Shown here piece after piece: positions 28,718-38,827 of a DNA stretch of 64,000 bases (its first letter is position 1; every line of letters starts with the position of its first letter). Location of the stretch: assembly GCA_947624965.1 (NCBI GenBank), contig CANQMN010000005.1, forward strand, positions 36,442 to 100,441, written 5' to 3'. The notes below the pieces were generated by a model, which ran no database searches, was not told the origin of the DNA, and saw nothing but the letters and a program-made list of their open reading frames with translations. The position numbers and the translations under genes were made by a program. Source of the DNA: an uncultured Clostridia bacterium. GTDB taxonomy: Bacteria > Bacillota > Clostridia > Christensenellales > Borkfalkiaceae.

Positions 28718-30148
28718 TTATTCCTGTTTTTCTTCGGGCGTCTCCGCGGGAGTTTCGCTCTCTTCCGCGGCGGGAGCCTCGGGCTCCTCCGCAGGGGTCT
28801 CTGCGGGAGCTTCGGCACCTTCCTGCGCCTTGCGCTTCGCTTCCATCTTCGCGTCGCGCTTCATCTGCTTCTTCATTTCCTTGGTAACGACGCGCGCCGC
28901 ATCGATCTGCGCCTTCATCTCCTGCGGCGTAGGAGGCACGAACGCCGCGCCCTCCGCGTTTTCGGGGATCACGTCGTAGTGCTCGTCGCGCTCCAAAAGG
29001 GTGGCTTCCGTGTAGCCGTCGAACAGGTGGATGTGCTTCGCGTCGAAGGCAAGCTCGACGATCTCGCCGAGATTGACGACCGCACGGGAAGAGATCTTCG
29101 CAATCATCTGCGCCGCGTTGTCGACGACGGAGTTCTTATCGCTCTCGTAATCGAGGTCGCAGTAGATCTGCGTCTCCGCGCCGAGTTTTTCGATAACGTC
29201 GATGCGCGCCTTCACGAGCGTCTCGGGAGAGGTGGAGATGAACGCCTGATCTTCGTGAATGTCCTCGGGACGGACGCCGAGCGTAACTTCCTTGCCCGTG
29301 TTGAGGTATTCGTCGATGTTCTTGATCTTCGCGACCATCGTCTTGGGAAGGACGATCTTGTTGCCGCCGATGAAGTTCACGCTCACCTTGCCGTTCTCTT
29401 CGGTGAGGGTGGAGTTCTTGAAGAAGTTCATCTGGGGCGTTCCGATGAAGCCCGCGACGAACAGGTTGATGGGATAATCGTAGAGGTTCTGGGGCGTATC
29501 GACCTGCTGCATGAAGCCGTCCTTCATGACGACGATACGGGTGCCCATCGTCATCGCTTCGATCTGATCGTGCGTGACGTAGATGAACGTCGTCGCGAGA
29601 CGGACGTGCAGTTTGGAAATTTCGGTACGCATCTGCGCACGGAGCTTCGCATCGAGGTTGGACAGAGGCTCGTCGAGCAGGAACACTTTGGGCTCGCGGA
29701 CGATCGTTCTGCCGAGCGCGACACGCTGGCGCTGACCACCGGAAAGAGCCTTGGGCTTACGGGAAAGGTAATCGGTGATGCCGAGGATCTCCGCGGCGGC
29801 TTTCACTTTCTCATCGATGACTTCCTTGGGCACCTTGCGGAGCTTCAAGCCGAACGCCATATTGTCGTAGACGGACATATGAGGATAGAGCGCGTAGTTC
29901 TGGAAAACCATTGCGATATCTCTGTCCTTGGGAACGACGTCGTTGACGAGCTTGCCGTCGATGTACAGTTCGCCCGAGGAGATCTCTTCGAGGCCCGCGA
30001 TCATGCGGAGCGTCGTAGACTTACCGCAGCCGGAGGGACCGACGAAGACGATGAATTCCTTGTCGCGGATATCGAGGCAGAAGTTGAACACCGCCTGGTT
30101 TCCGCCGGGATAAATTTTGTTGATGCCTTTGAGTAACAGACCGGACAT
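28718..30148 (-). CDS. MalK/MsmK-type sugar ABC transporter ATPase with about 100-aa charged C-terminal extension
   Basis: 476 aa with Walker A GPSGCGKST, signature LSGGQRQR and Walker B FLLDEPLS, plus a TOBE-like domain and a Lys/Glu/Ala/Pro-rich tail. No permease genes are adjacent. Confidence 0.85.
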   Translation of the reverse strand: MSGLLLKGINKIYPGGNQAVFNFCLDIRDKEFIVFVGPSGCGKSTTLRMIAGLEEISSGELYIDGKLVNDVVPKDRDIAMVFQNYALYPHMSVYDNMAFGLKLRKVPKEVIDEKVKAAAEILGITDYLSRKPKALSGGQRQRVALGRTIVREPKVFLLDEPLSNLDAKLRAQMRTEISKLHVRLATTFIYVTHDQIEAMTMGTRIVVMKDGFMQQVDTPQNLYDYPINLFVAGFIGTPQMNFFKNSTLTEENGKVSVNFIGGNKIVLPKTMVAKIKNIDEYLNTGKEVTLGVRPEDIHEDQAFISTSPETLVKARIDVIEKLGAETQIYCDLDYESDKNSVVDNAAQMIAKISSRAVVNLGEIVELAFDAKHIHLFDGYTEATLLERDEHYDVIPENAEGAAFVPPTPQEMKAQIDAARVVTKEMKKQMKRDAKMEAKRKAQEGAEAPAETPAEEPEAPAAEESETPAETPEEKQE

Positions 30149-30186
30149 AATTTTCCTCCCACAGAAAAGTAGATTTTTATGCTATT

Positions 30187-30215
30187 ATTTTACACGATAT
30201 GAAGGAAAATTTCAA
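30187..30215 (-). promoter_or_regulatory. candidate sigma-A promoter of the ABC ATPase gene
   Basis: The reverse strand reads TTGAAA-17 nt-TGtAAAAT. Confidence 0.4.
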
Positions 30216-30310
30216 GAGAAAATGATAACAAAGATTGACGGGCATTTTGTACAGTTTGCACAAAAAAAGAGGAAAAGCGCCTATTCCTTTTGTGCGGAAT
30301 GCGCGATATT

Positions 30311-31848
30311 CCCCCCCGCGCTCCGCGCGGGGGAGAAGAAGGAAAAGCGCGGGGGTACCAACAACTTACCTCCCCCTTGAAAGGGGGAGGGTTGGGTGGG
30401 GGTTGACGGGAAGGACGAAGGGTGGGGAGAAGAAGCCACTCCCCCTCCCCTATCGCCCGCACGTATTGTGCCGCCGAAGGGCGACACGAGGAGCGGAGCG
30501 ACGAAGTACCCCTCCCCCCCACCCTACCCTCCCCCTCACATCGTGAGGGGGAGGTAAAAACGAGGATGAGGGTAACAAGAACAACAAAGCGCAGGGGGAA
30601 AGTGAAACCACTCCCCCCCTCCTCTCCCCCGCGCGAAGCGCGGGGGAGTGCCAACAACTTACCTCCCCCTTTCAAGGGGGAGGGTTGGGTGGGGGTTGAC
30701 AGGAAGGACGAGAGGCGGGGAGAAGAAGCCACTCCCCCTACCCTATCGCCCGCACGTATTGTGCCGCCGAAGGGCGACACGAGGAGCGAAGCGACGAAGT
30801 ACCCGTCCCCCTCCCCAACCCCTCCCCCTCAATGAGGGGGAGGGTAAATAAGTAGTAATACGCGCGGGGGGAAAGAAGGAAAAGCGAGGGGGTACCAACT
30901 TACCTCCCCCTTGAAAGGGGGAGGGTTGGGTGGGGGTTGACGGGAAGGACGAAAGGTGAGGAGAAGAAACCACTCCCCCTACCCTACCCTCCCCCTCGCA
31001 AAGCGAGGGGGAGGGTAAAAGAAAGAAAAAAGGCGGGGAAATAGAGACCCCCCGCGCTCCGCGCGGGGGGTGAAGAAGGAAAAGCGCGGGGGTACCAACT
31101 TACCTCCCCCCCACTTGAAAGGGAAGGATCTGCCAACTCACCTCCCCCTTGAAAGGGGGAGGGTTGGGTGGGGGTTGAGATCTGCCGCGGCGCTCCTTTG
31201 TCTGCTCTCCCTCCCCAACCCCTGGGTGCGGCGGCAGGTACCGCCGCACCCCCCGTCGCGCTTGCCTGCGCTCCCGTCGCGGCGCGCTACTTCGTGCCGC
31301 GCTTAGTAGACAATAGTGCGCGCGGGGCACAGTCCACTGGACTGTTGAGCAGAACGCGCCGCTCCCCCCCCGCGCGAAGCGCGGGGGGGTTGACGGGAAG
31401 GACGAAAGGTGAGGAGAAGAAACCACTCCCCCTCCCCAACCCCTCCCCCTCGCAAGGCGAGGGGGAGGGTAAAAGAAAGAAAAGCGCGGGGGAGGGTAAA
31501 GAAAGAAAAGCGCGGGAAGGAAAAGACCTCCCCCGCGCGAAGCGCGGGGGTACCAACTTACCTCCCCCTTGAAAGGGGGAGGGTTGGGTGGGGGTTGACG
31601 GGAAGGACGAAAGGTGGGGAGAAGAAACCCCTCCCCCTACCCTACCCTCCCCCCTCACATCGTGAGGGGGGAGGTAAAAAAGACGAACGCGGGGGAGGGT
31701 AAAGAGGGATAGCGCGGGAAGAAAAAGAACTCCCCCGCGCGGAGCGCGGGGGAGGTTTGGTTCGTTATGGATACCGAAAGGTCGGTTGCGTATCCAATGT
31801 GGAGGGGGCTCCCCCTCCCCTACCCCTCCCCCTCAATGAGGGGGAGGG
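30311..31848. repeat. mosaic array of GC-rich palindromic units (left flank of giant lipoprotein gene)
   Basis: It contains recurrent hairpin units CCCCCGCGC-nnn-GCGCGGGGG, CCTCCCCC-TTGAAA-GGGGGAGG with a conserved tail, and CCCTCCCCCTC-loop-GAGGGGGAGGG. Details are in the findings. Confidence 0.85.
31257..31369 (+). repeat. 113-bp direct repeat, copy 1
   Basis: CGCGCTTGCCTGCGCTCCCGTCGCGGCGCGCTACTTCGTGCCGCGCTTAGTAGACAATAGTGCGCGCGGGGCACAGTCCACTGGACTGTTGAGCAGAACGCGCCGCTCCCCCC recurs at 36607-36719 with a single mismatch. Confidence 0.9.
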
Positions 31849-31884
31849 TGGGTTAAGCGTTAACGCCTAATCGGTCGAGAAGTG

Positions 31885-34800
31885 TTACTCTTGGGGCGTA
31901 AGCGTATTGCTGTAACAGAACGAGAGGTTATCGAGCCACCAGGTATTGCCAAGTTGCAATCTGAAAGTGAGCGCTTCCGTCGTAAAGTCATGCAAAACGA
32001 TCTTGTGCTCCCAAACAGATTCGTTCTGGCTGTGCAAACTGATGAGCACCGTGAACTTACTGCCGATCCTGTAAACCGTTACCTCGTAATCCCCGATAAC
32101 TTCCTCATCGCCCTCAACTTCCTCAGCAGGCTGCTGGGGTTTGGTTCCTTGGGTCGTCTCGTTGGTTTCGATTTTGTCATTAGTCAGGTCGCCCCAGATG
32201 TTACCATCGACAACATTGTAGTCGAAGTACTGATTGGCTGCATTAAAGAACTCGACAAAGCCGCAGTTGAAATACTTGCCGGCATCGCGTGTATTCGACC
32301 AAGATATTACCGCTACAAAGTCGCCCGCGGCAACTTGAACCTCGCTCGACGCGTCGCCGCCTTGTCCCCCGATAGCATTCGTATCGGCGTTATAGAAGGC
32401 ATAATTTCTCTCTGCCGTTGCGTTATACGTCGTATCGCTTTCCGTGATGGTGAGTTTCCGCGCGCCGCAGATGGAGCAGACGTTCTCCTCCCACTGGTGG
32501 TCGGCTTCCACTGCGGGAACGCTCTGCGCATTGCCGCTCCTCGTGACCGTGCCCGTGAACTGTACGCCCGCTTCGTCGCCGGCGATCCCGAGCCAATACT
32601 TATCCGCAAGTTTTTGATGCTTGTCGTATGCAGTATAGGTCATCACGTTCTGATAGTGCTTATCGCTCGCGGAGAACGTCGTGGTAACGACGATCTTCGT
32701 CGAATCCGAAAAGTCTACTACGATCTGGAAGTCGGACAAGGAGACCCCCACAAAGCTCGCTTGGAAGGTTTCACGCGAAGAAGCCACGTCGTCTATCGTC
32801 GAGTTAGACGTATAGGCGAGCATCGTATCGACGTTTACCGCACTGTTGCCCTTTGCGTTGTCGTTTACAAGAATGTTGTTGGCTTCGTAAACAGAGAATG
32901 CGATATTCACACTGTCCCCGTCATTCGGCGCCAATACGGCGACAACGGAGTCCCAAGCGTGAGTGAACTGCGTAGACCCTGCGTACGTAACCGTCTGCCC
33001 ATACCCGATGGACATGGAGAGCCATTCGGGCTGGAACCAACCCGTGCCGGTATAAGGCGTTTCGGTGTAGTTTACGCTGTTGAGGTCGTAAACCGCTTCG
33101 AGCGTGATACTGCCGCTCAGCGAAGAGAACTGCGAATCCGCCGTATAGGTCGAATTGTCGTTCGTCCCTTTCCAATAGCGGAAGGTACCCTTCGTGGACG
33201 TGGGATCCTCGTATCCTTCGACGAGGTCGGAAAGTTTGCCGTTCGACGTGCTCGTGAGCCCTGTCTGCTTCTTATACTCCGAACCGTCGTTCATGAGCGT
33301 GATGGTGAAGTCCTCCTTGAACACCGCAACAAACTCGATGTCGTCCATCTCGTCCGTCAGCGTAAGTTCGGAGATCGCCGTGGTATCGCCACTGCCGTCC
33401 GCGGAGTAGGTCGTGCCGTCATACTTCCAGCCGACGAGCGCGTGATCCGTCCACGTAGGGCCGTCCTCGGGAAGGGTGATCGCCTCGCCCGACTTCTTCG
33501 TTTGGGTCTGAACGTCCCACGAATCGCCATCGTAGTCTCCGTCCGTCGTGAAGGTTATGGTGTGCGCCTTCTCCCAAACCGCAACGAACTCGATGTTCGC
33601 AGTGATCGGGGTCTCATACTTTTCGCCGTCGTGCGTGTAGAGGCGCTCGCCCGAAACGTCGGTGGAGAGCTTCCAACCCTTGAAGGTCAGCTTGCCGTCC
33701 GTCGCCGTGGGATCTTCGGGCCACTGATCGGTGAGCGTCGTGTTCTTATCTACATAGAAGGACGTAGAGCCGTTGCCCTTCTCATCCGTGAAGGTAACTT
33801 GCGGGCGCTCTTCCCAAACCGCCGTGAAGGTGGTATCGGCAGTGATCGTCCCGGCGTAGGGGCTCGCCTTGGTGTACTTGGTATCGTCCCCGCCGTTCTT
33901 CGTCCAGCCGAGGAACTTGAAGCCCTCGGGCGCCGTGGGATCGTTGGGCCACTGATCGCCGATCGTCGCGTTTTGGTCTACATAGAAGGACGTAGAACCG
34001 ATGTTCTTGTCATCCGTGAAGGTGATATGCCACTGCCGTTCCCACTGCGCGTTGAACGTCGTCGCGTCAATGATCGCTTCGGAATAGGGGTTCGACTTGG
34101 TGTACTTTTCGCCGTCGTTGCCGTCCTTCGTCCAACCGAGGAACTTCCAGCCCGTTACGACGGGATCTTCGGGCCAAGAGCCCGCGGGGATCGTTTCGCC
34201 CTTTACGACGGAGAGCGTCTTGCCGCTTCCGCCCTTGTTATCCGTAAAGGTAACTTCCCACACTTGGTCTGCGCTCGGCTGGGTGTAAACCGCATACGTC
34301 GCGGGTTCGCCGCCGTAGATGCCGATGCTCTCATCGAGGTAGTGCAGGAACCAATATTCGAGATCTTCGTCTCCCGAAGCAAAGCCGACGTAGCCGTAAC
34401 CGCCGAGCCACATGATCGCGCCCGTCTTGGCGCCCATCGACAGGCTGCCCTCTTCGATGATAACGGTCTCGTGCTCCGCCGCCATCCACGTGCCTTCCAC
34501 GTCCGAGGGTGCGAGACCGATCGGGTTCTTCGTTGCATTCGCAGAGCCGATGACGATGTGGTCCGTATCATACGTGAAGGAAAGGAGGCCGCTGTACTCG
34601 GTGGTATACGTGCCGTCTGCATAGTTGACCGCTACGAGACGCGCGGACTGGGTATCGCCCGCCGTCCAGATGAGCGCATTCGCAACGTGCGTGCCCTCTA
34701 CATCCGCGGGAACGGTGATGAGAATGGTGTCGTTCCCGTTCGCATACTGCCCTTCGATCTCCAATTCCCAAACTGCGGCATACTCGTATGTCTCGCCGCC

Positions 34801-36183
34801 TTCGAGTTCCGTGATCGTCTCGCCGGGAGCTTTAATTGTCATCGAGCCGACGCCGTGGCCGCCCCCTTCATTGACGCCCCAACCCTTGAAGGCGTAGCAA
34901 CCGAGCGACGCCGTAAATCCGAGCGCAGAAGGCTGGGGAAGGGTGAGCGAGAAGGTATCCGAAGTTTCCGTAAGGCAAGCGCGCACCTTGTTGTTTGCCT
35001 TGCCGATCGAGCCGCCCTCACCGCTGCCCGCGTTGAACACAACTTCGGGACGGATGGCGACTTTTTCGCCGTAGAGCGTGATATCTGCCGTCGGAACGTA
35101 GGTATAGTCCACAAGGGTGGTCGCATCGTGCGTCGTCTCGTCCGTATACCAATACATTTCCTGCGTCCAAACATCGTTTTCGAGCGCTTCGTCATCGACG
35201 TCGCTGAACGCCCACTCGTCGCCGATGGGCTCGCCCTTCGCGACTTCGATCGTCGCGGTGAGCGGCGCCCCCTCCACAGAGAAGGAGACCGTCCACTTGT
35301 CCTCGGCGAGAATATCGCCGTTCTCGTACATCGTGCAGCTGTCGCCGCCCAGAACGTTGACGCCGCCCGTCGTCTTTTCCACGATGTAGTAGTCGTCGTC
35401 GGCGCACGTAAGGACCGCCCACTTGCCGAGATAAATTACGGTGTAGCCGTCGCCGTCAAGGGTCGCCATGCCGCCCGTCTTGATTTCGAGACGGGACGTC
35501 TCATGATGATAGACGCCGACAAATTCGGGCGTTGCGGGAAGCGCGGCATGCTCGGTGAGTTGGAGCGTATCCATATCGCCGTACTTAAACGTGAGCGTTC
35601 CTTCCGCATAGGAGAGGATCGCATCCTCGGCGGGAAGCGCATTCCCCTGGATGCTTTTCAGCGTATACGCGCCGTCCTCTTCGTCAACTTGGAGAAGTAT
35701 CGTAAAACAGTGCGAGCTCGACGAATCGTCGCGGGCAACCATCACGAGGTCGTAATCGTAGCCTGCCAACGTGCCCGCGGCTTGAATGCCGATCTCCATG
35801 GTCATCGTAACGCCGGGCCCCTCCGAATCCGTGATGGTCCAGAGACCCGGGATGCCGTCGGGAACGTTTTCCTGCCACTGCGCGGTGAACGTTACGTTCT
35901 TCTTGGGCATCGTATATTCCGCCTTGGCGGCGTACGTCTTCGTGCCGTCGCTCCAACCCGTGAACGTATGATTCTCATACGAATAGGTGCTTTCCGCAAG
36001 CTGGAACTTTTCCCCCTCTGCGTGCGTTTCGCTTTCAGGCGTCGTTCCCGTTACCGCCGTGTTGCCCGGCGCGTACGTTACGGTGTACTTGTCCCCCTCC
36101 GTCTCCGTACACGCGGCAATGCCGCACGCCAGAAGCGATACGAGAAGAACGGAGCCGAACACTTTGCACAAAAGTTTCTTCAT
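31885..36183 (-). CDS. 1432-aa surface lipoprotein with InlB B-repeat (Listeria-Bacteroides repeat) domains
   Basis: It has signal peptide plus lipobox MKKLLCKVFGSVLLVSLLACGIAAC. There are at least 6 repeats ending in F.GW...(A/T)(V/Q)W (e.g. FLGWTKDG...FNAQW, FKGWKL...FVAVW). The C-terminus has beta-sandwich-like domains. An AGGAGG RBS is present. Confidence 0.8.
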   Translation of the reverse strand: MKKLLCKVFGSVLLVSLLACGIAACTETEGDKYTVTYAPGNTAVTGTTPESETHAEGEKFQLAESTYSYENHTFTGWSDGTKTYAAKAEYTMPKKNVTFTAQWQENVPDGIPGLWTITDSEGPGVTMTMEIGIQAAGTLAGYDYDLVMVARDDSSSSHCFTILLQVDEEDGAYTLKSIQGNALPAEDAILSYAEGTLTFKYGDMDTLQLTEHAALPATPEFVGVYHHETSRLEIKTGGMATLDGDGYTVIYLGKWAVLTCADDDYYIVEKTTGGVNVLGGDSCTMYENGDILAEDKWTVSFSVEGAPLTATIEVAKGEPIGDEWAFSDVDDEALENDVWTQEMYWYTDETTHDATTLVDYTYVPTADITLYGEKVAIRPEVVFNAGSGEGGSIGKANNKVRACLTETSDTFSLTLPQPSALGFTASLGCYAFKGWGVNEGGGHGVGSMTIKAPGETITELEGGETYEYAAVWELEIEGQYANGNDTILITVPADVEGTHVANALIWTAGDTQSARLVAVNYADGTYTTEYSGLLSFTYDTDHIVIGSANATKNPIGLAPSDVEGTWMAAEHETVIIEEGSLSMGAKTGAIMWLGGYGYVGFASGDEDLEYWFLHYLDESIGIYGGEPATYAVYTQPSADQVWEVTFTDNKGGSGKTLSVVKGETIPAGSWPEDPVVTGWKFLGWTKDGNDGEKYTKSNPYSEAIIDATTFNAQWERQWHITFTDDKNIGSTSFYVDQNATIGDQWPNDPTAPEGFKFLGWTKNGGDDTKYTKASPYAGTITADTTFTAVWEERPQVTFTDEKGNGSTSFYVDKNTTLTDQWPEDPTATDGKLTFKGWKLSTDVSGERLYTHDGEKYETPITANIEFVAVWEKAHTITFTTDGDYDGDSWDVQTQTKKSGEAITLPEDGPTWTDHALVGWKYDGTTYSADGSGDTTAISELTLTDEMDDIEFVAVFKEDFTITLMNDGSEYKKQTGLTSTSNGKLSDLVEGYEDPTSTKGTFRYWKGTNDNSTYTADSQFSSLSGSITLEAVYDLNSVNYTETPYTGTGWFQPEWLSMSIGYGQTVTYAGSTQFTHAWDSVVAVLAPNDGDSVNIAFSVYEANNILVNDNAKGNSAVNVDTMLAYTSNSTIDDVASSRETFQASFVGVSLSDFQIVVDFSDSTKIVVTTTFSASDKHYQNVMTYTAYDKHQKLADKYWLGIAGDEAGVQFTGTVTRSGNAQSVPAVEADHQWEENVCSICGARKLTITESDTTYNATAERNYAFYNADTNAIGGQGGDASSEVQVAAGDFVAVISWSNTRDAGKYFNCGFVEFFNAANQYFDYNVVDGNIWGDLTNDKIETNETTQGTKPQQPAEEVEGDEEVIGDYEVTVYRIGSKFTVLISLHSQNESVWEHKIVLHDFTTEALTFRLQLGNTWWLDNLSFCYSNTLTPQE

Positions 36184-36325
36184 TCTGGTCCTCCTGATAT
36201 TATTTTTGCTCTATGTCCAACGGTTATGCATCTCTCCCGAGAACCCCCATTGCCGGGAGAAAAGCATCGCCACCTGTGCCGATTTCCTCGGTTTTTTTGA
36301 CAATAAAAACCAATTATGTGGGTAT

Positions 36326-36355
36326 AGTATACCATTACCCCCCCCCGAATGTCAA
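36326..36355 (-). promoter_or_regulatory. promoter of the giant lipoprotein gene with a G9 tract in the spacer
   Basis: The reverse strand reads TTGACA ttcGGGGGGGGGtaatgg TATACT. The spacer is 18 nt with a TGg extended -10. The C9 run lies at 36338-36346 on +. Confidence 0.55.
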
Positions 36356-36390
36356 CCGTTTTGTGAAAATTTATTTTTTATTATAAGGTC

Positions 36391-37477
36391 TGCGCGCCCG
36401 CGCGTGAGAAACCACGCCCTTCGGCGCACTTTTCCACCCCCACCCCTTATGAGGGGGAAAGAGAGTGTTCTCCCCACGTTGAGGGGGGGAACGAAGCCAC
36501 TCCCCCCACCCTACCCCTCGGGTGCGGCGGCAGGTACCGCCGCACCCCCCGTACTTCGGCGCAATGCGCCTCGTGCCGCGCTTAGTAGACAATCGTGCGC
36601 GCGGGGCGCGCTTGCCTGCGCTCCCGTCGCGGCGCGCTACTTCGTGCCGCGCTTAGTAGGCAATAGTGCGCGCGGGGCACAGTCCACTGGACTGTTGAGC
36701 AGAACGCGCCGCTCCCCCCTCGCTTGCGAGGGGGGAGGTAAAGAGAACCGACGAGAGGGATATATAGCTACCTTCCCCCTCGCTTGCGAGGGGGAAGGTA
36801 AAAAGGAAAACGCGGGGAGAGAATATATCCACCTCCCCCCTTCCAAGAGGGAGCAAAATCTATCTACCTCCCCCTTCCAAGGGGAAACAAAATATATCCA
36901 CCTCCCCCTTTCCAAGGGGGAGGGTTGGGTGGGGGTTGATTTCCTCACTCGCCTTTCCCCTCTCCTTTCCTCCCCCTCATTGAAAGGAGAGAAAAATAGA
37001 GTGTTCTCCCCTCAACGAGGAGAGAACGAAGCCACTCCCCCTACCCTGCCCTTCCCCCTCGCAACGCGAGGGGGAAGGTAAAGAGAACCGACGCGGGGAA
37101 ACAAAATCTATCTACCTCCCCCTTCCAAGGGGAAACAAAATATATCCACCTCCCCCTTCCCAAGGGGAAACAAAATATATCCACCTCCCCCTTTCCAAGG
37201 GGGAGGGTTGGGTGGGGGTTGATTTCCTCACTCGCCTTTCCCCTCTCCTTCCCCCCCTCATTGAAAGGAGAAAAAATAGAGTGGTCTCCCCTCGTTGAGG
37301 GGAGACCGAAACCACTCCCCCTACCCTACCCTCGGGTGCGGCGGCAGGTACCGCCGCACCCCCCGTACTTCGGCGCAATGCGCCTCGTGCCGCGCTTGGT
37401 CAATAATAGTGCGCGCGGGGCGCGCTTGCCTGCGCTCCCCCTACCCTGCCCTCCCCCCTCGTGAACGAGGGGGGAGG
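36391..37477. repeat. mosaic array of GC-rich palindromic units (right flank / upstream of giant lipoprotein gene)
   Basis: It uses the same unit families as the left array. It also has about 34-bp mini-units (caaaatatatccaCCTCCCCCttccaaGGGGG) and a duplicated compound unit (36854-37046 and 37102-37329). Confidence 0.85.
36607..36719 (+). repeat. 113-bp direct repeat, copy 2
   Basis: It matches 31257-31369 with one A/G mismatch. Confidence 0.9.
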
Positions 37478-37539
37478 TAAGAGGGAACCGACGCGGGAGG
37501 AGGGAAAAACGGCGTGGGAGGAGAGAGCGGCATAAAAAA

Positions 37540-37567
37540 TCCGCGCGGACAGATCTGTCCGCGCGGA
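37540..37567 (-). terminator. rho-independent terminator of clpX
   Basis: The palindrome is TCCGCGCGGACAGATCTGTCCGCGCGGA, followed on the reverse strand by ATTTTTTATG. Confidence 0.7.
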
Positions 37568-37587
37568 ACGGTTTCCCTATTCTTCCG

Positions 37588-38817
<1,230 letters not shown>

Positions 38818-38827
38818 ATTCACTCCG

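What the first reader, a model, noticed from the sequence alone, without database searches (positions are those of the whole stretch)
31257..36719. 113-bp near-identical direct repeats bracket the AT-richer giant lipoprotein gene (cassette-like architecture)
31257-31369 and 36607-36719 are direct repeats with one mismatch in 113 nt. They enclose the whole 4.3-kb gene and its promoter. By eye, the gene is clearly AT-richer than the flanking housekeeping genes, especially in its 3' third. Sub-segments of the repeat (TCGTGCCGCGCTTAGTAGACAATAGTGCGCGCGGGG) recur at about 36569 and 37383. Homologous recombination between the 113-bp copies would delete or exchange the gene. The layout fits a replaceable surface-antigen cassette.
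Basis: partly seen in the sequence, partly recalled or inferred. Interest (0 to 1): 0.6.

Follow-up and report, generated by a model that had tools for sequence, protein, structure and literature searches.

The report
Nested hairpin repeats flanking variable lipoprotein
The two 113-base repeats are real, but they are two of at least five copies of a small hairpin element, nested inside other small repeats scattered through this rabbit-gut Clostridia genome, and they happen to lie on both sides of a species-specific giant surface lipoprotein gene in a spot that holds other genes, or none, in related species.

Summary
The repeat pair is confirmed: 31257-31373 and 36607-36723 are 117 nt with 2 mismatches (113 nt with 1). 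It is not a dedicated cassette border.

- **What the unit is.** A ~100-nt multi-hairpin element ("A") carries a 39-nt hairpin element ("B") inserted in it. A itself sits inside a third repeat module ("hpD").
- **How common it is.** Five full copies and two B-less copies exist in the 1.79-Mb genome. The right copy is as close to a copy on another contig as to the left copy.
- **Where it lies.** Both copies sit in the genome's two largest mosaic repeat arrays. About 58 intergenic gaps carry such repeats, almost all downstream of genes.
- **Gene composition.** It is ordinary: GC z = -0.6 and synonymous codon use z = -0.14.
- **The site.** The gap between clpX and the ABC-ATPase gene is hypervariable in the genus. 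It is empty (187-272 bp) in some species and holds unrelated giant lipoproteins or other genes in others.
- **Other samples.** Independent assemblies keep the gene intact. The only change seen is a 248-bp repeat-mediated indel inside the right array.
- **Transposases.** None was found.

The verdict is REP/BIME-like nested repeats beside a gene slot resembling a minimal mobile element. The scan noted similar hairpin mosaics in another gut Clostridia genome.

The parts
28718..30148 (-). MalK-like ABC transporter ATPase. This is the conserved left border of the variable slot. Its promoter-like site is at 30215-30187.
   Evidence: Pfam ABC_tran, OB_MalK and TOBE_2. 85-93% identical orthologues in most congeners. 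Promoter scan.
30280..31880 (.). Left mosaic repeat array, 1.6 kb and the largest in the genome. It is built from hairpin and G-run modules and from segmental duplications of 114-197 nt.
31224..31363 (+). Left copy of element A (140 nt, with B nested).
   Evidence: Folds as several hairpins, DNA z = -3.5.
31289..31327 (+). Element B (39 nt, ACTTCGTGCCGCGCTTAGTAGACAATAGTGCGCGCGGGG) inserted in A. B-less copies of A read GGCGCGCT|CACAGTCC at this point.
   Evidence: filled versus empty A copies at C5:8643 and C3:112278
31730..31754 (-). First strong terminator-like hairpin downstream of the lipoprotein gene (11-bp stem with a T-rich tail). It is one of many such hairpins oriented with transcription.
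   Evidence: 23 terminator-like sites against 9.9 +/- 2.9 in shuffles, mostly on the minus strand
31885..36183 (-). P0001, a 1432-aa lipoprotein. It has a lipobox signal peptide, one N-terminal and about five central Flg_new (Listeria-Bacteroides) repeats, and otherwise no known domain.
   Evidence: No full-length homologue.
36326..36355 (-). Promoter-like site of P0001, TTGACA-18-TATACT with TG, and a G9 run in the spacer.
   Evidence: sequence
36390..37530 (.). Right mosaic repeat array, 1.1 kb and the second largest in the genome. It lies between the clpX terminator and the P0001 promoter.
36520..36713 (+). Right copy of element A (194 nt) with two nested inserts, B' (36553-36606) and B (36639-36677). 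Joining its flanks restores an intact hpD module.
36854..37167 (+). Two 66-nt direct repeats (36854-36919 and 37102-37167). Recombination between them, or assembly collapse, explains an array 248 bp shorter in another sample.
   Evidence: L042 from ERZ27249481; family D8
37334..37439 (+). Third, truncated A element with a B' insert (37367-37420), joined to another module.
   Evidence: (D13, D18)
37540..37567 (-). Canonical intrinsic terminator of clpX (12-bp stem followed by TTTTTT).
37588..38823 (-). clpX, the conserved right border of the slot. clpP and trigger factor lie upstream of it.
   Evidence: 87-93% identical in 40 of 40 congeners

Best explanation
The two 113-nt repeats are two copies of a dispersed, composite, non-coding hairpin element. 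They are not purpose-built cassette ends.

**Anatomy (shown).** A 39-54-nt two-hairpin element (B/B') inserts without target duplication, after a T, into a ~100-nt multi-hairpin element (A). A in turn sits at one fixed position inside a third, far more abundant hairpin module (hpD).

**How the arrays form.** These pieces accumulate downstream of genes, together with local segmental duplications and unequal crossing-over. This builds mosaic arrays. The nesting, the filled and empty sites and the tandem duplications are shown. The process of insertion is inferred from them.

**Why two copies flank this gene.** The genome's two largest arrays lie on either side of P0001. P0001 is a species-specific giant surface lipoprotein that occupies a hypervariable slot between clpX and an ABC-ATPase gene. 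Because both arrays have the same orientation, they inevitably offer direct repeats across the gene. The A+B pair is simply the longest and most similar of these.

**What the arrays do (inferred).** They probably act like REP/BIME clusters, as stacked terminator or insulator hairpins and as permissive landing sites.

**Consequence for the gene (inferred, not observed).** As a by-product, the arrays make the gene prone to RecA-dependent loss. Gene turnover at the slot over evolutionary time more likely runs through the conserved flanking genes, in the manner of a minimal mobile element, than through the 113-nt repeats.
For: - **Copy number.** The 113-nt unit has five full copies at 96-100% identity (C5 x3, C9, C3), plus partial copies.
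- **B is nested in A.** B-less A copies at C5:8643 and C3:112278 read straight across the B site. The right copy carries an extra B'.
- **A is nested in hpD.** For 6 of 7 A elements, joining the two flanks restores an intact hpD module found at 12-39 other places, at 88-96% identity across the junction.
- **B' filled and empty sites.** A paralogous filled and empty pair exists in G018.
- **B' is a structured family.** Its first hairpin shows 14 different stems of at least 4 bp, present in 48% of variants against 3% of shuffles. Loop sequences are species-specific and there are 12-33 copies per genome, with 0 in the reversed-pattern control.
- **The pair is not special.** The right copy differs from the C9:39887 copy by 1 nt and shares a 216-nt, 97% match with it. 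It shares 113 nt with the left copy.
- **Genome-wide distribution.** Repeats lie in 58 gene gaps: 34 tandem, 22 convergent and 2 divergent, against a background of 712/144/148. The density of repeated 16-mers is about 10 times higher outside genes.
- **Array size and orientation.** The two arrays here are the largest in the genome. Terminator-like hairpins number 23 against 9.9 +/- 2.9 in shuffles, mostly on the transcribed strand.
- **Slot variability.**
- **Ordinary composition.**
- **Same layout in independent assemblies.** The only change is a 248-bp intra-array indel.
- **Recombination machinery.** RecA, ComEC and DprA are encoded.
Against: - No enzyme that moves these elements was found. 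Y1_Tnp/RAYT, OrfB_IS605, DDE_Tnp_1 and rve gave no match, and DEDD_Tnp_IS110 gave only a weak match below the cut-off. Active mobility is therefore inferred only from nesting and from near-identity of copies. Bins built from metagenomes often lose insertion sequences.
- The left/right pair has the highest identity of all copy pairs (99.1%). This could reflect local gene conversion or a recent local event rather than coincidence.
- The left copy's right flank is not an hpD half, so some rearrangement happened there.
- The terminator or insulator function is inferred from sequence only; there are no transcript data.
- The nearest sampled species are distant (ClpX at most 93% identical), so the recent history of the slot is unknown.
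Confidence: 0.78

Rival explanations
1. Dedicated cassette. The 113-nt repeats are the functional ends of a replaceable surface-antigen cassette. Recombination between them, or with incoming DNA carrying the same ends, deletes or exchanges the lipoprotein gene as a selected mechanism.
For: - The pair is the longest and most similar direct repeat across the gene (113 nt, 99.1%).
- It encloses the gene and its promoter but spares the clpX terminator and the ABC promoter.
- The slot is variable among species.
- RecA, ComEC and DprA are present.
- Repeat-mediated change does occur in the right array, as a 248-bp indel.
Against: - The unit is dispersed: 5 full copies, two subfamilies, and copies with 0, 1 or 2 nested inserts.
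- The right copy is equally close to a copy on another contig.
- No congener slot has the 113-nt unit at its borders, and truly empty sites carry no repeat at all.
- Composition is ordinary.
- Six contigs from other samples (L035-L039, L042) carry the gene intact, and contig depth equals that of the flanks.
- No recombinase gene lies nearby.
Confidence: 0.1
2. Selected regulatory or insulator arrays. The mosaic arrays, including the A+B units, are kept because stacked hairpins and G-rich motifs terminate transcription, stabilise the 3' end of the giant mRNA, or insulate it from clpX and the ABC operon. Their repetition across the gene is a side effect. This can be true together with the best explanation.
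For: - Repeat-bearing gaps are almost all tandem or convergent, 56 of 58.
- Terminator-like hairpins are enriched and oriented with transcription.
- Arrays are enriched next to genes of at least 1000 aa: 13 of 116 neighbour slots against 3.8 expected, with no permutation out of 5000 reaching 13.
- The G018 slot shows the same layout with other repeat families.
- REPs are proposed to have such roles (PMC3733652 abstract).
Against: - There are no transcript data.
- Congeners with a small or empty slot manage with a single clpX terminator.
- The array length differs by 248 bp between samples.
- Most hairpins lack a good T-run.
Confidence: 0.3
3. Assembly artefact. The repeats and arrays are chimeric or duplicated joins made when the metagenome-derived genome was assembled.
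For: - Many contigs of this genome end in these repeats.
- Contigs from other samples break at the 113-nt unit.
- One contig (L036) shows a looped path through the left array.
Against: - L042, from a separately assembled sample, spans clpX, the right array, the gene, the left array and the ABC gene. It has one mismatch and one 248-bp indel.
- L035 and L043 confirm each array separately.
Confidence: 0.02

Closest known systems
REP / BIME / REPIN clusters of proteobacteria (Bertels and Rainey 2011, PMC3116915; BIME concept recalled from memory)
   Same: These are short, repetitive, extragenic, palindromic units. They are combined into mosaic clusters of several hundred bases, lie mostly between tandem and convergent genes, occur as several families in one genome, and show insertion of one element into another.
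   Different: No RAYT or Y1 transposase is present in this genome, and Y1 genes in three congeners are not flanked by these repeats. Units A (100 nt) and B' (52-55 nt, two hairpins, 14-17-nt loop) are not classical 20-40-nt REPs. The host is an uncultured Clostridia lineage. The nesting has three ordered levels with fixed insertion points.
GTAG- and CGTC-tagged REP superfamilies (Di Nocera et al. 2013, PMC3733652)
   Same: The genomic distribution is the same: downstream of genes, in tandem and convergent gaps. CGTC REPs also lack a dedicated transposase. Some form large clusters, for example in Neisseria and Wolbachia.
   Different: The defining anatomy does not fit A or B. That anatomy is an unpaired GTAG or CGTC tag, an 8-9-bp stem starting with two A-T pairs, a 4-5-nt loop and a CCA tail. 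Only the CCCCCGCGC-N3-GCGCGGGGG hairpins show a loose resemblance, with CCTC before and ..ACCA after.
Minimal mobile elements of Neisseria (definition quoted in PMC3082526)
   Same: Two conserved genes (clpX and the ABC-ATPase gene) have different whole-gene contents, or nothing, between them. No integrase or insertion sequence lies at the site.
   Different: Here the variation is seen between species of a genus, not between strains. Exchange by homologous recombination after DNA uptake is not shown. The slot is also a synteny breakpoint in some species.
IS200/IS605-derived miniature elements (palindrome-associated elements; recalled from memory)
   Same: They insert without target duplication next to a short motif. 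They have hairpin ends whose stems covary between subfamilies.
   Different: No Y1 transposase or TnpB was found in this genome. No autonomous parent flanked by B'-like ends was found in five candidate places.

Membership tests
[quoted passage not shown] | Repetitive within the genome | tested here: met
   About 69 regions hit by the two arrays. 58 gene gaps carry repeated 16-mers. There are 13 B-type and 7 A copies.
[quoted passage not shown] | Predominantly extragenic, between tandem or convergent genes | tested here: met
   16,643 of 24,760 repeat-masked bases lie in the 17% of the genome that is non-coding. Gap types are 34 tandem, 22 convergent and 2 divergent.
[quoted passage not shown] | Palindromic, forming hairpins | tested here: met
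   Inverted repeats. A+B folds with z -3.5 as DNA. The first hairpin of B' covaries.
[quoted passage not shown] | Unit size of 20-40 bp | tested here: inconclusive
   B is 39 nt and several hairpin modules are 21-35 nt. A is 100 nt and B' is 52-55 nt.
REPIN-RAYT system | A RAYT (Y1 transposase) gene is present in the genome | tested here: not met
   PF01797 gave no match in a 98.7% complete genome while the control genomes rang. It is also absent from the repeat-rich congeners G006, G014 and G015. Caveat: this is a metagenome bin.
REPIN-RAYT system | The RAYT gene is flanked by the cognate REPs | tested here: not met
   Three Y1 loci of congeners (L046-L048) hold no B'-like element.
GTAG/CGTC-tagged REP superfamilies | Unpaired GTAG or CGTC tag, 8-9-bp stem starting with A-T pairs, 4-5-nt loop, CCA tail | tested here: not met
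   Definition from PMC3733652 section 6. B has a G+C-only stem and a 14-17-nt loop. A is a multi-hairpin element.
MITE (miniature inverted-repeat transposable element) | Terminal inverted repeats plus a target-site duplication | tested here: not met
   No duplication is seen at the filled and empty sites of B, B' or A. The ends of A and B are not inverted repeats of each other.
Minimal mobile element | Two conserved flanking genes with different whole-gene contents between them | tested here: met
   The comparison is between species of the genus, not between strains.
Minimal mobile element | Contents exchanged by homologous recombination in the flanks | not testable with these tools
   No closely related strains with another content were found. 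The other samples carry the identical gene.
Site-specific gene cassette (integron or recombinase-driven shufflon type) | A recombinase gene lies nearby and the repeat is confined to cassette borders | tested here: not met
   The neighbours are ABC ATPase, ArsP_2, clpX, clpP, tig and others, with no recombinase domain. The repeat is dispersed.
Repeat-mediated deletion or amplification switch | Junction reads or altered depth in the population | tested here: inconclusive
   Assembler depth of the gene contig equals that of the flanks in three samples: 5.56 against 6.00; 6.45 against 6.45 and 5.40; 6.48 against 5.69. At about 6x depth this cannot show rare variants.

The most novel reading that the evidence does not exclude
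The B' -> A -> hpD hierarchy may be a self-targeting family of hairpin elements that still moves in these rabbit-gut Clostridia by an enzyme other than the known Y1, TnpB or DDE transposases. The points in favour are the fixed insertion points, the absence of target duplication, the species-specific homogenised copies and the failure to find any of those transposases. The arrays it builds would then preferentially flank giant orphan surface-protein genes and speed up their loss and replacement.
Probability: 0.15. Interest if true: 0.65.

Novelty: new member of a known kind. Interest (0 to 1): 0.36.

Why it matters
This result corrects a tempting reading. Long direct repeats around a gene in a repeat-rich genome need not be cassette ends.

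It also documents, in an uncultured gut Clostridia lineage, a REP/BIME-like system with clear three-level nesting and no visible transposase. That bears on the open question of how transposase-less palindromic repeats spread.

The clpX/ABC slot and the enrichment of arrays next to giant orphan surface proteins give concrete places to look for surface-protein turnover in gut commensals. If repeat-mediated loss of such genes were shown in reads, it would be a simple way for the population to vary its surface.

Tried and rejected
- **Junction pattern search.** An exact-pattern scan of JGI metagenome contigs for the predicted deletion junction found nothing. The control scan for the repeat itself also found nothing. 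The organism is not in that collection, so the result is uninformative.
- **Known RNA families.** Rfam gave only sub-threshold miRNA-like hairpin hits over 29500-38500. A known RNA family is rejected.
- **RAYT/REPIN membership.** Rejected.
- **Other transposase families in the genome.** OrfB_IS605, DDE_Tnp_1 and rve gave no match. DEDD_Tnp_IS110 gave one weak match below the cut-off.
- **Autonomous parent element.** I looked between closely spaced B' copies in G018 and G006 and found only ordinary genes: a DnaJ-like gene, a tRNA synthetase-like gene and a lipoprotein.
- **Horizontal transfer judged by composition.** Rejected.
- **Exact look-up of ClpX.** It failed because the annotated start differs. 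ClpP and the ABC ATPase were used instead.
- **First repeat census.** A census with 13-mers was too permissive and was discarded. It was redone with 16-mers.
- **First B-element regex.** A loose regex gave mostly false hits. It was replaced by exact patterns.
- **Domains and structures.** Pfam on protein pieces and a PDB sequence search found nothing beyond Flg_new.

Full report
**Observation.** The direct repeat is real. 31257-31373 and 36607-36723 match over 117 nt with 2 mismatches, or 113 nt with 1 (family D14). The pair encloses the 1432-aa lipoprotein gene P0001 (31885-36183, minus strand). It also encloses the gene's promoter-like site, TTGACA-18-TATACT at 36355-36326.

**Anatomy of the repeat.** The 113-nt unit is a composite.
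- The genome has five full copies: C5:67698 (the left copy), C5:73048 (the right copy), C5:21066, C9:39887 and C3:121155. They are 96-100% identical.
- Two further copies, at C5:8643 and C3:112278, lack the central 39 nt and read GGCGCGCT|CACAGTCC across that point.
- The insert is B, ACTTCGTGCCGCGCTTAGTAGACAATAGTGCGCGCGGGG.
- The right copy and the C9 and C3:121155 copies carry a second, longer insert, B' (54 nt), between the first hairpin and the rest of A. A elements are thus 100, 139-140 or 194 nt long.
- A third, truncated A with a B' lies at 37334-37439.
- A is itself an insert. For 6 of 7 A elements, joining the two flanks restores an uninterrupted hpD module (CCACTCCCCCTCCCC..CCCCTCCCCCTCGCAAGGCGAGGGGGAGGGTAA). 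That module exists at 12-39 other places at 88-96% identity across the junction.
- The left copy is the exception. Its right flank belongs to another hairpin module.
- No target duplication is visible at any of these filled and empty pairs.

**B' is a structured family spread through a lineage.**
All 80 listed are rabbit ("Lapin") gut bins labelled uncultured Clostridia bacterium.
- The stem of its first hairpin varies while staying paired. There are 14 distinct stems of at least 4 bp, present in 48% of variants against 3% of shuffles.
- Each species has its own homogenised loop sequence and 12-33 copies, with no hit to the reversed control pattern.
- In G018, a B' copy splits a sequence that occurs intact about 300 nt away in the same array. 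The insertion is after a T and has no duplication.

**Genome-wide picture.**
- The modules of the two arrays hit about 69 regions, roughly 20 kb, in the 1.79-Mb, 58.5% GC, 98.7% complete genome.
- A 16-mer census finds repeats in 58 gene gaps. Of these, 34 are tandem, 22 convergent and 2 divergent, against 712/144/148 for all gaps. The density is about ten times higher outside genes.
- The two arrays around P0001 (1537 and 981 bp by that census) are the largest in the genome.
- Repeat-bearing gaps adjoin genes of at least 1000 aa more often than expected: 13 of 116 neighbour slots against 3.8 expected, and none of 5000 permutations reached 13. Five such neighbours have few or no known domains: Big_2 in one, a sub-threshold AgI/II-like hit in one, and none in three. 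The gene calls behind these counts are my own crude ones.
- Many contigs end in these repeats.

**Is the left/right pair special? No.**
- In the A part the left and right copies are identical. In B they differ by one base. That base in the right copy is shared with the C9 copy, and the base in the left copy is shared with C5:21066.
- The right copy matches C9:39579-40022 over 216 nt at 97%, longer than its 113-nt match to the left copy.
- The seven A elements fall into two subfamilies that do not follow their positions.

**The gene.** P0001 has a lipoprotein signal peptide, one N-terminal Flg_new repeat, about five central Flg_new repeats, and otherwise no Pfam or PDB match. It has no full-length relative in 18 congeners or in the 5.8-billion-protein collection. 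Only repeat-level matches appear.

**Composition.** It is ordinary.
- The gene is 57.2% GC against 59.9 +/- 4.5% (z -0.6). GC3 has z -0.56 and synonymous codon use z -0.14. The neighbours are 58-59% GC.
- The 3' third is 53.1% GC (z -1.7), which is low but not an outlier.

**The slot in relatives.** clpX and the ABC-ATPase gene are conserved in all 40 congeners searched. Where both lie on one contig, the distance between them ranges from 187 bp to 20 kb, with these contents:
- Empty, with only the clpX terminator and the ABC promoter: G037, G031 and G012.
- Small repeat modules only: G013, G011, G044 and G008. G008 holds one divergent A-like element with compensatory stem changes.
- Small lipoproteins: G004 and G051.
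- Unrelated giant lipoproteins of 1243-1783 aa: G034, G010, G014, G039, G033 and G018.
- Other genes: G007, G035 and G002.
- A sugar-utilisation island: G049.

The lipoproteins share only the first 100-230 residues at 29-48% identity. At the DNA level only the ABC promoter and scattered modules are shared. The G018 slot is likewise flanked by 1.2-kb and 1.7-kb arrays of other repeat families. In the species with the most similar ClpX (G032, G052, G006), other genes follow clpX, so the site is also a synteny breakpoint.

**Other samples.**
- P0001 is encoded identically on contigs from six other assemblies. L042 (ERZ27249481) spans clpX, the right array, the gene, the left array and the ABC gene. 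It differs by one mismatch and a 248-bp deletion between the 66-nt direct repeats 36854-36919 and 37102-37167.
- L035 and L043 confirm each array separately.
- Several contigs break at the 113-nt unit, as expected for a five-copy repeat.
- Assembler depth of the gene contig equals that of the flanks. There is therefore no sign of amplification or of a major deleted population. At about 6x depth, rare events would be invisible.

**How it most likely works.**
- Shown: small hairpin elements are nested in a fixed order (B/B' in A, A in hpD). They lie downstream of genes. They are combined with segmental duplications (families D1, D3, D17) and at least one repeat-mediated indel.
- Inferred: they were inserted by a site-preferring process without target duplication, and the arrays then grow and shrink by unequal recombination.
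- Inferred: the stacked hairpins, many terminator-like and oriented with transcription (23 against 9.9 +/- 2.9), act as terminators or insulators, as proposed for REPs (PMC3733652).
- Because both arrays point the same way, direct repeats across the gene are unavoidable. The 113-nt pair is the best substrate for RecA, which the genome encodes, so gene loss by this route is plausible. It is not shown, and nothing marks the pair as selected for that.

**Comparison with known systems.**
- The elements meet the broad REP hallmarks: repetitive, extragenic and palindromic (PMC3116915). They also match the REP distribution (PMC3733652).
- They fail the REPIN-RAYT test, because no Y1 transposase is present and Y1 genes of congeners are not flanked by them.
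- They fail the anatomy of GTAG/CGTC-tagged REPs and the MITE criteria, having no terminal inverted repeats and no target duplication.
- Transposase-less REP families are already known, namely the CGTC REPs (PMC3733652).
- The slot fits the descriptive part of the minimal-mobile-element definition (PMC3082526), but at species level, and the recombination step is untested.
- An earlier follow-up in this scan described similar REP-type hairpin mosaics in another gut Clostridia genome and pointed me to the Di Nocera paper.

**Limits.**
- The two JGI scans were uninformative.
- The genome is a metagenome bin, so the absence of insertion sequences is weak evidence.
- The nearest species are distant.

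**Verdict.** The cassette-border reading is mostly wrong, although the slot is genuinely variable. The thing itself is a new member of the REP/BIME-like class of nested intergenic repeats. Interest is moderate to low.

Noticed in passing
36338-36346: A C9 run (G9 on the gene's strand) fills half of the 18-nt spacer of the P0001 promoter-like site. Its length is the same in the contigs from six other assemblies that cover it; the alignments there have no gaps.
   Followed up: partly
36854-37167; L042: The right array is 248 bp shorter in sample ERZ27249481. The cause is loss of one unit between two 66-nt direct repeats. This is either a real length polymorphism or an assembly collapse.
   Followed up: partly
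Genome-wide (G000), e.g. C1:176533-186191, C5:7886-13998, C19:1364-8975, C20:5406-24448, C3:54085-77806: Repeat arrays adjoin giant genes (at least 1000 aa) about 3.4 times more often than expected. The five neighbours I checked are almost free of known domains and are probably surface proteins.
   Followed up: partly
31882-36300 (+): A 1472-aa open frame runs antisense to the whole lipoprotein gene and is longer than the gene itself. It has no signal peptide or domain evidence and is probably a by-product of the high GC3 of the true frame.
   Followed up: no
G000, G015, G006, G014, G018: B-type elements have species-specific loop sequences that are nearly uniform within each genome: AGAGAATTAGAAR in G018, AGTAGACAATAG in G000 and G015, and AGTAGACGAATRG in G006 and G014. 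This is the pattern expected from bursts within a genome or from concerted evolution.
   Followed up: partly
30455-30512 and 30748-30805: A B'-like element lies in reverse orientation inside the 197-nt duplicated unit of the left array: GGTACTTCGTCGCTCCGCTCCTCGTGTCGCCCTTCGGCGGCACAATACGTG on the minus strand. Both orientations therefore occur within one array.
   Followed up: no
G4-type 20-mer GGGGGAGGGTTGGGTGGGGG, e.g. 30382, 30675, 30916, 31154, 31574, 36915, 37198: This 20-mer has 99 copies genome-wide when up to 2 mismatches are allowed. None lies in a divergent gap. In tandem gaps the orientation relative to the flanking genes is balanced, 31 against 29.
   Followed up: partly
L165, L166, L168 (G032, G052, G006): In the species with the most similar ClpX, clpX is followed by other genes (triose-phosphate isomerase and phosphoglycerate kinase-like, and others) rather than the ABC ATPase. 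The slot therefore coincides with a synteny breakpoint.
   Followed up: partly
L182 (G018:C28:600-5500): Another lipoprotein, of 1016 aa, in G018 is bracketed by two B' copies in inverted orientation 4.4 kb apart.
   Followed up: no
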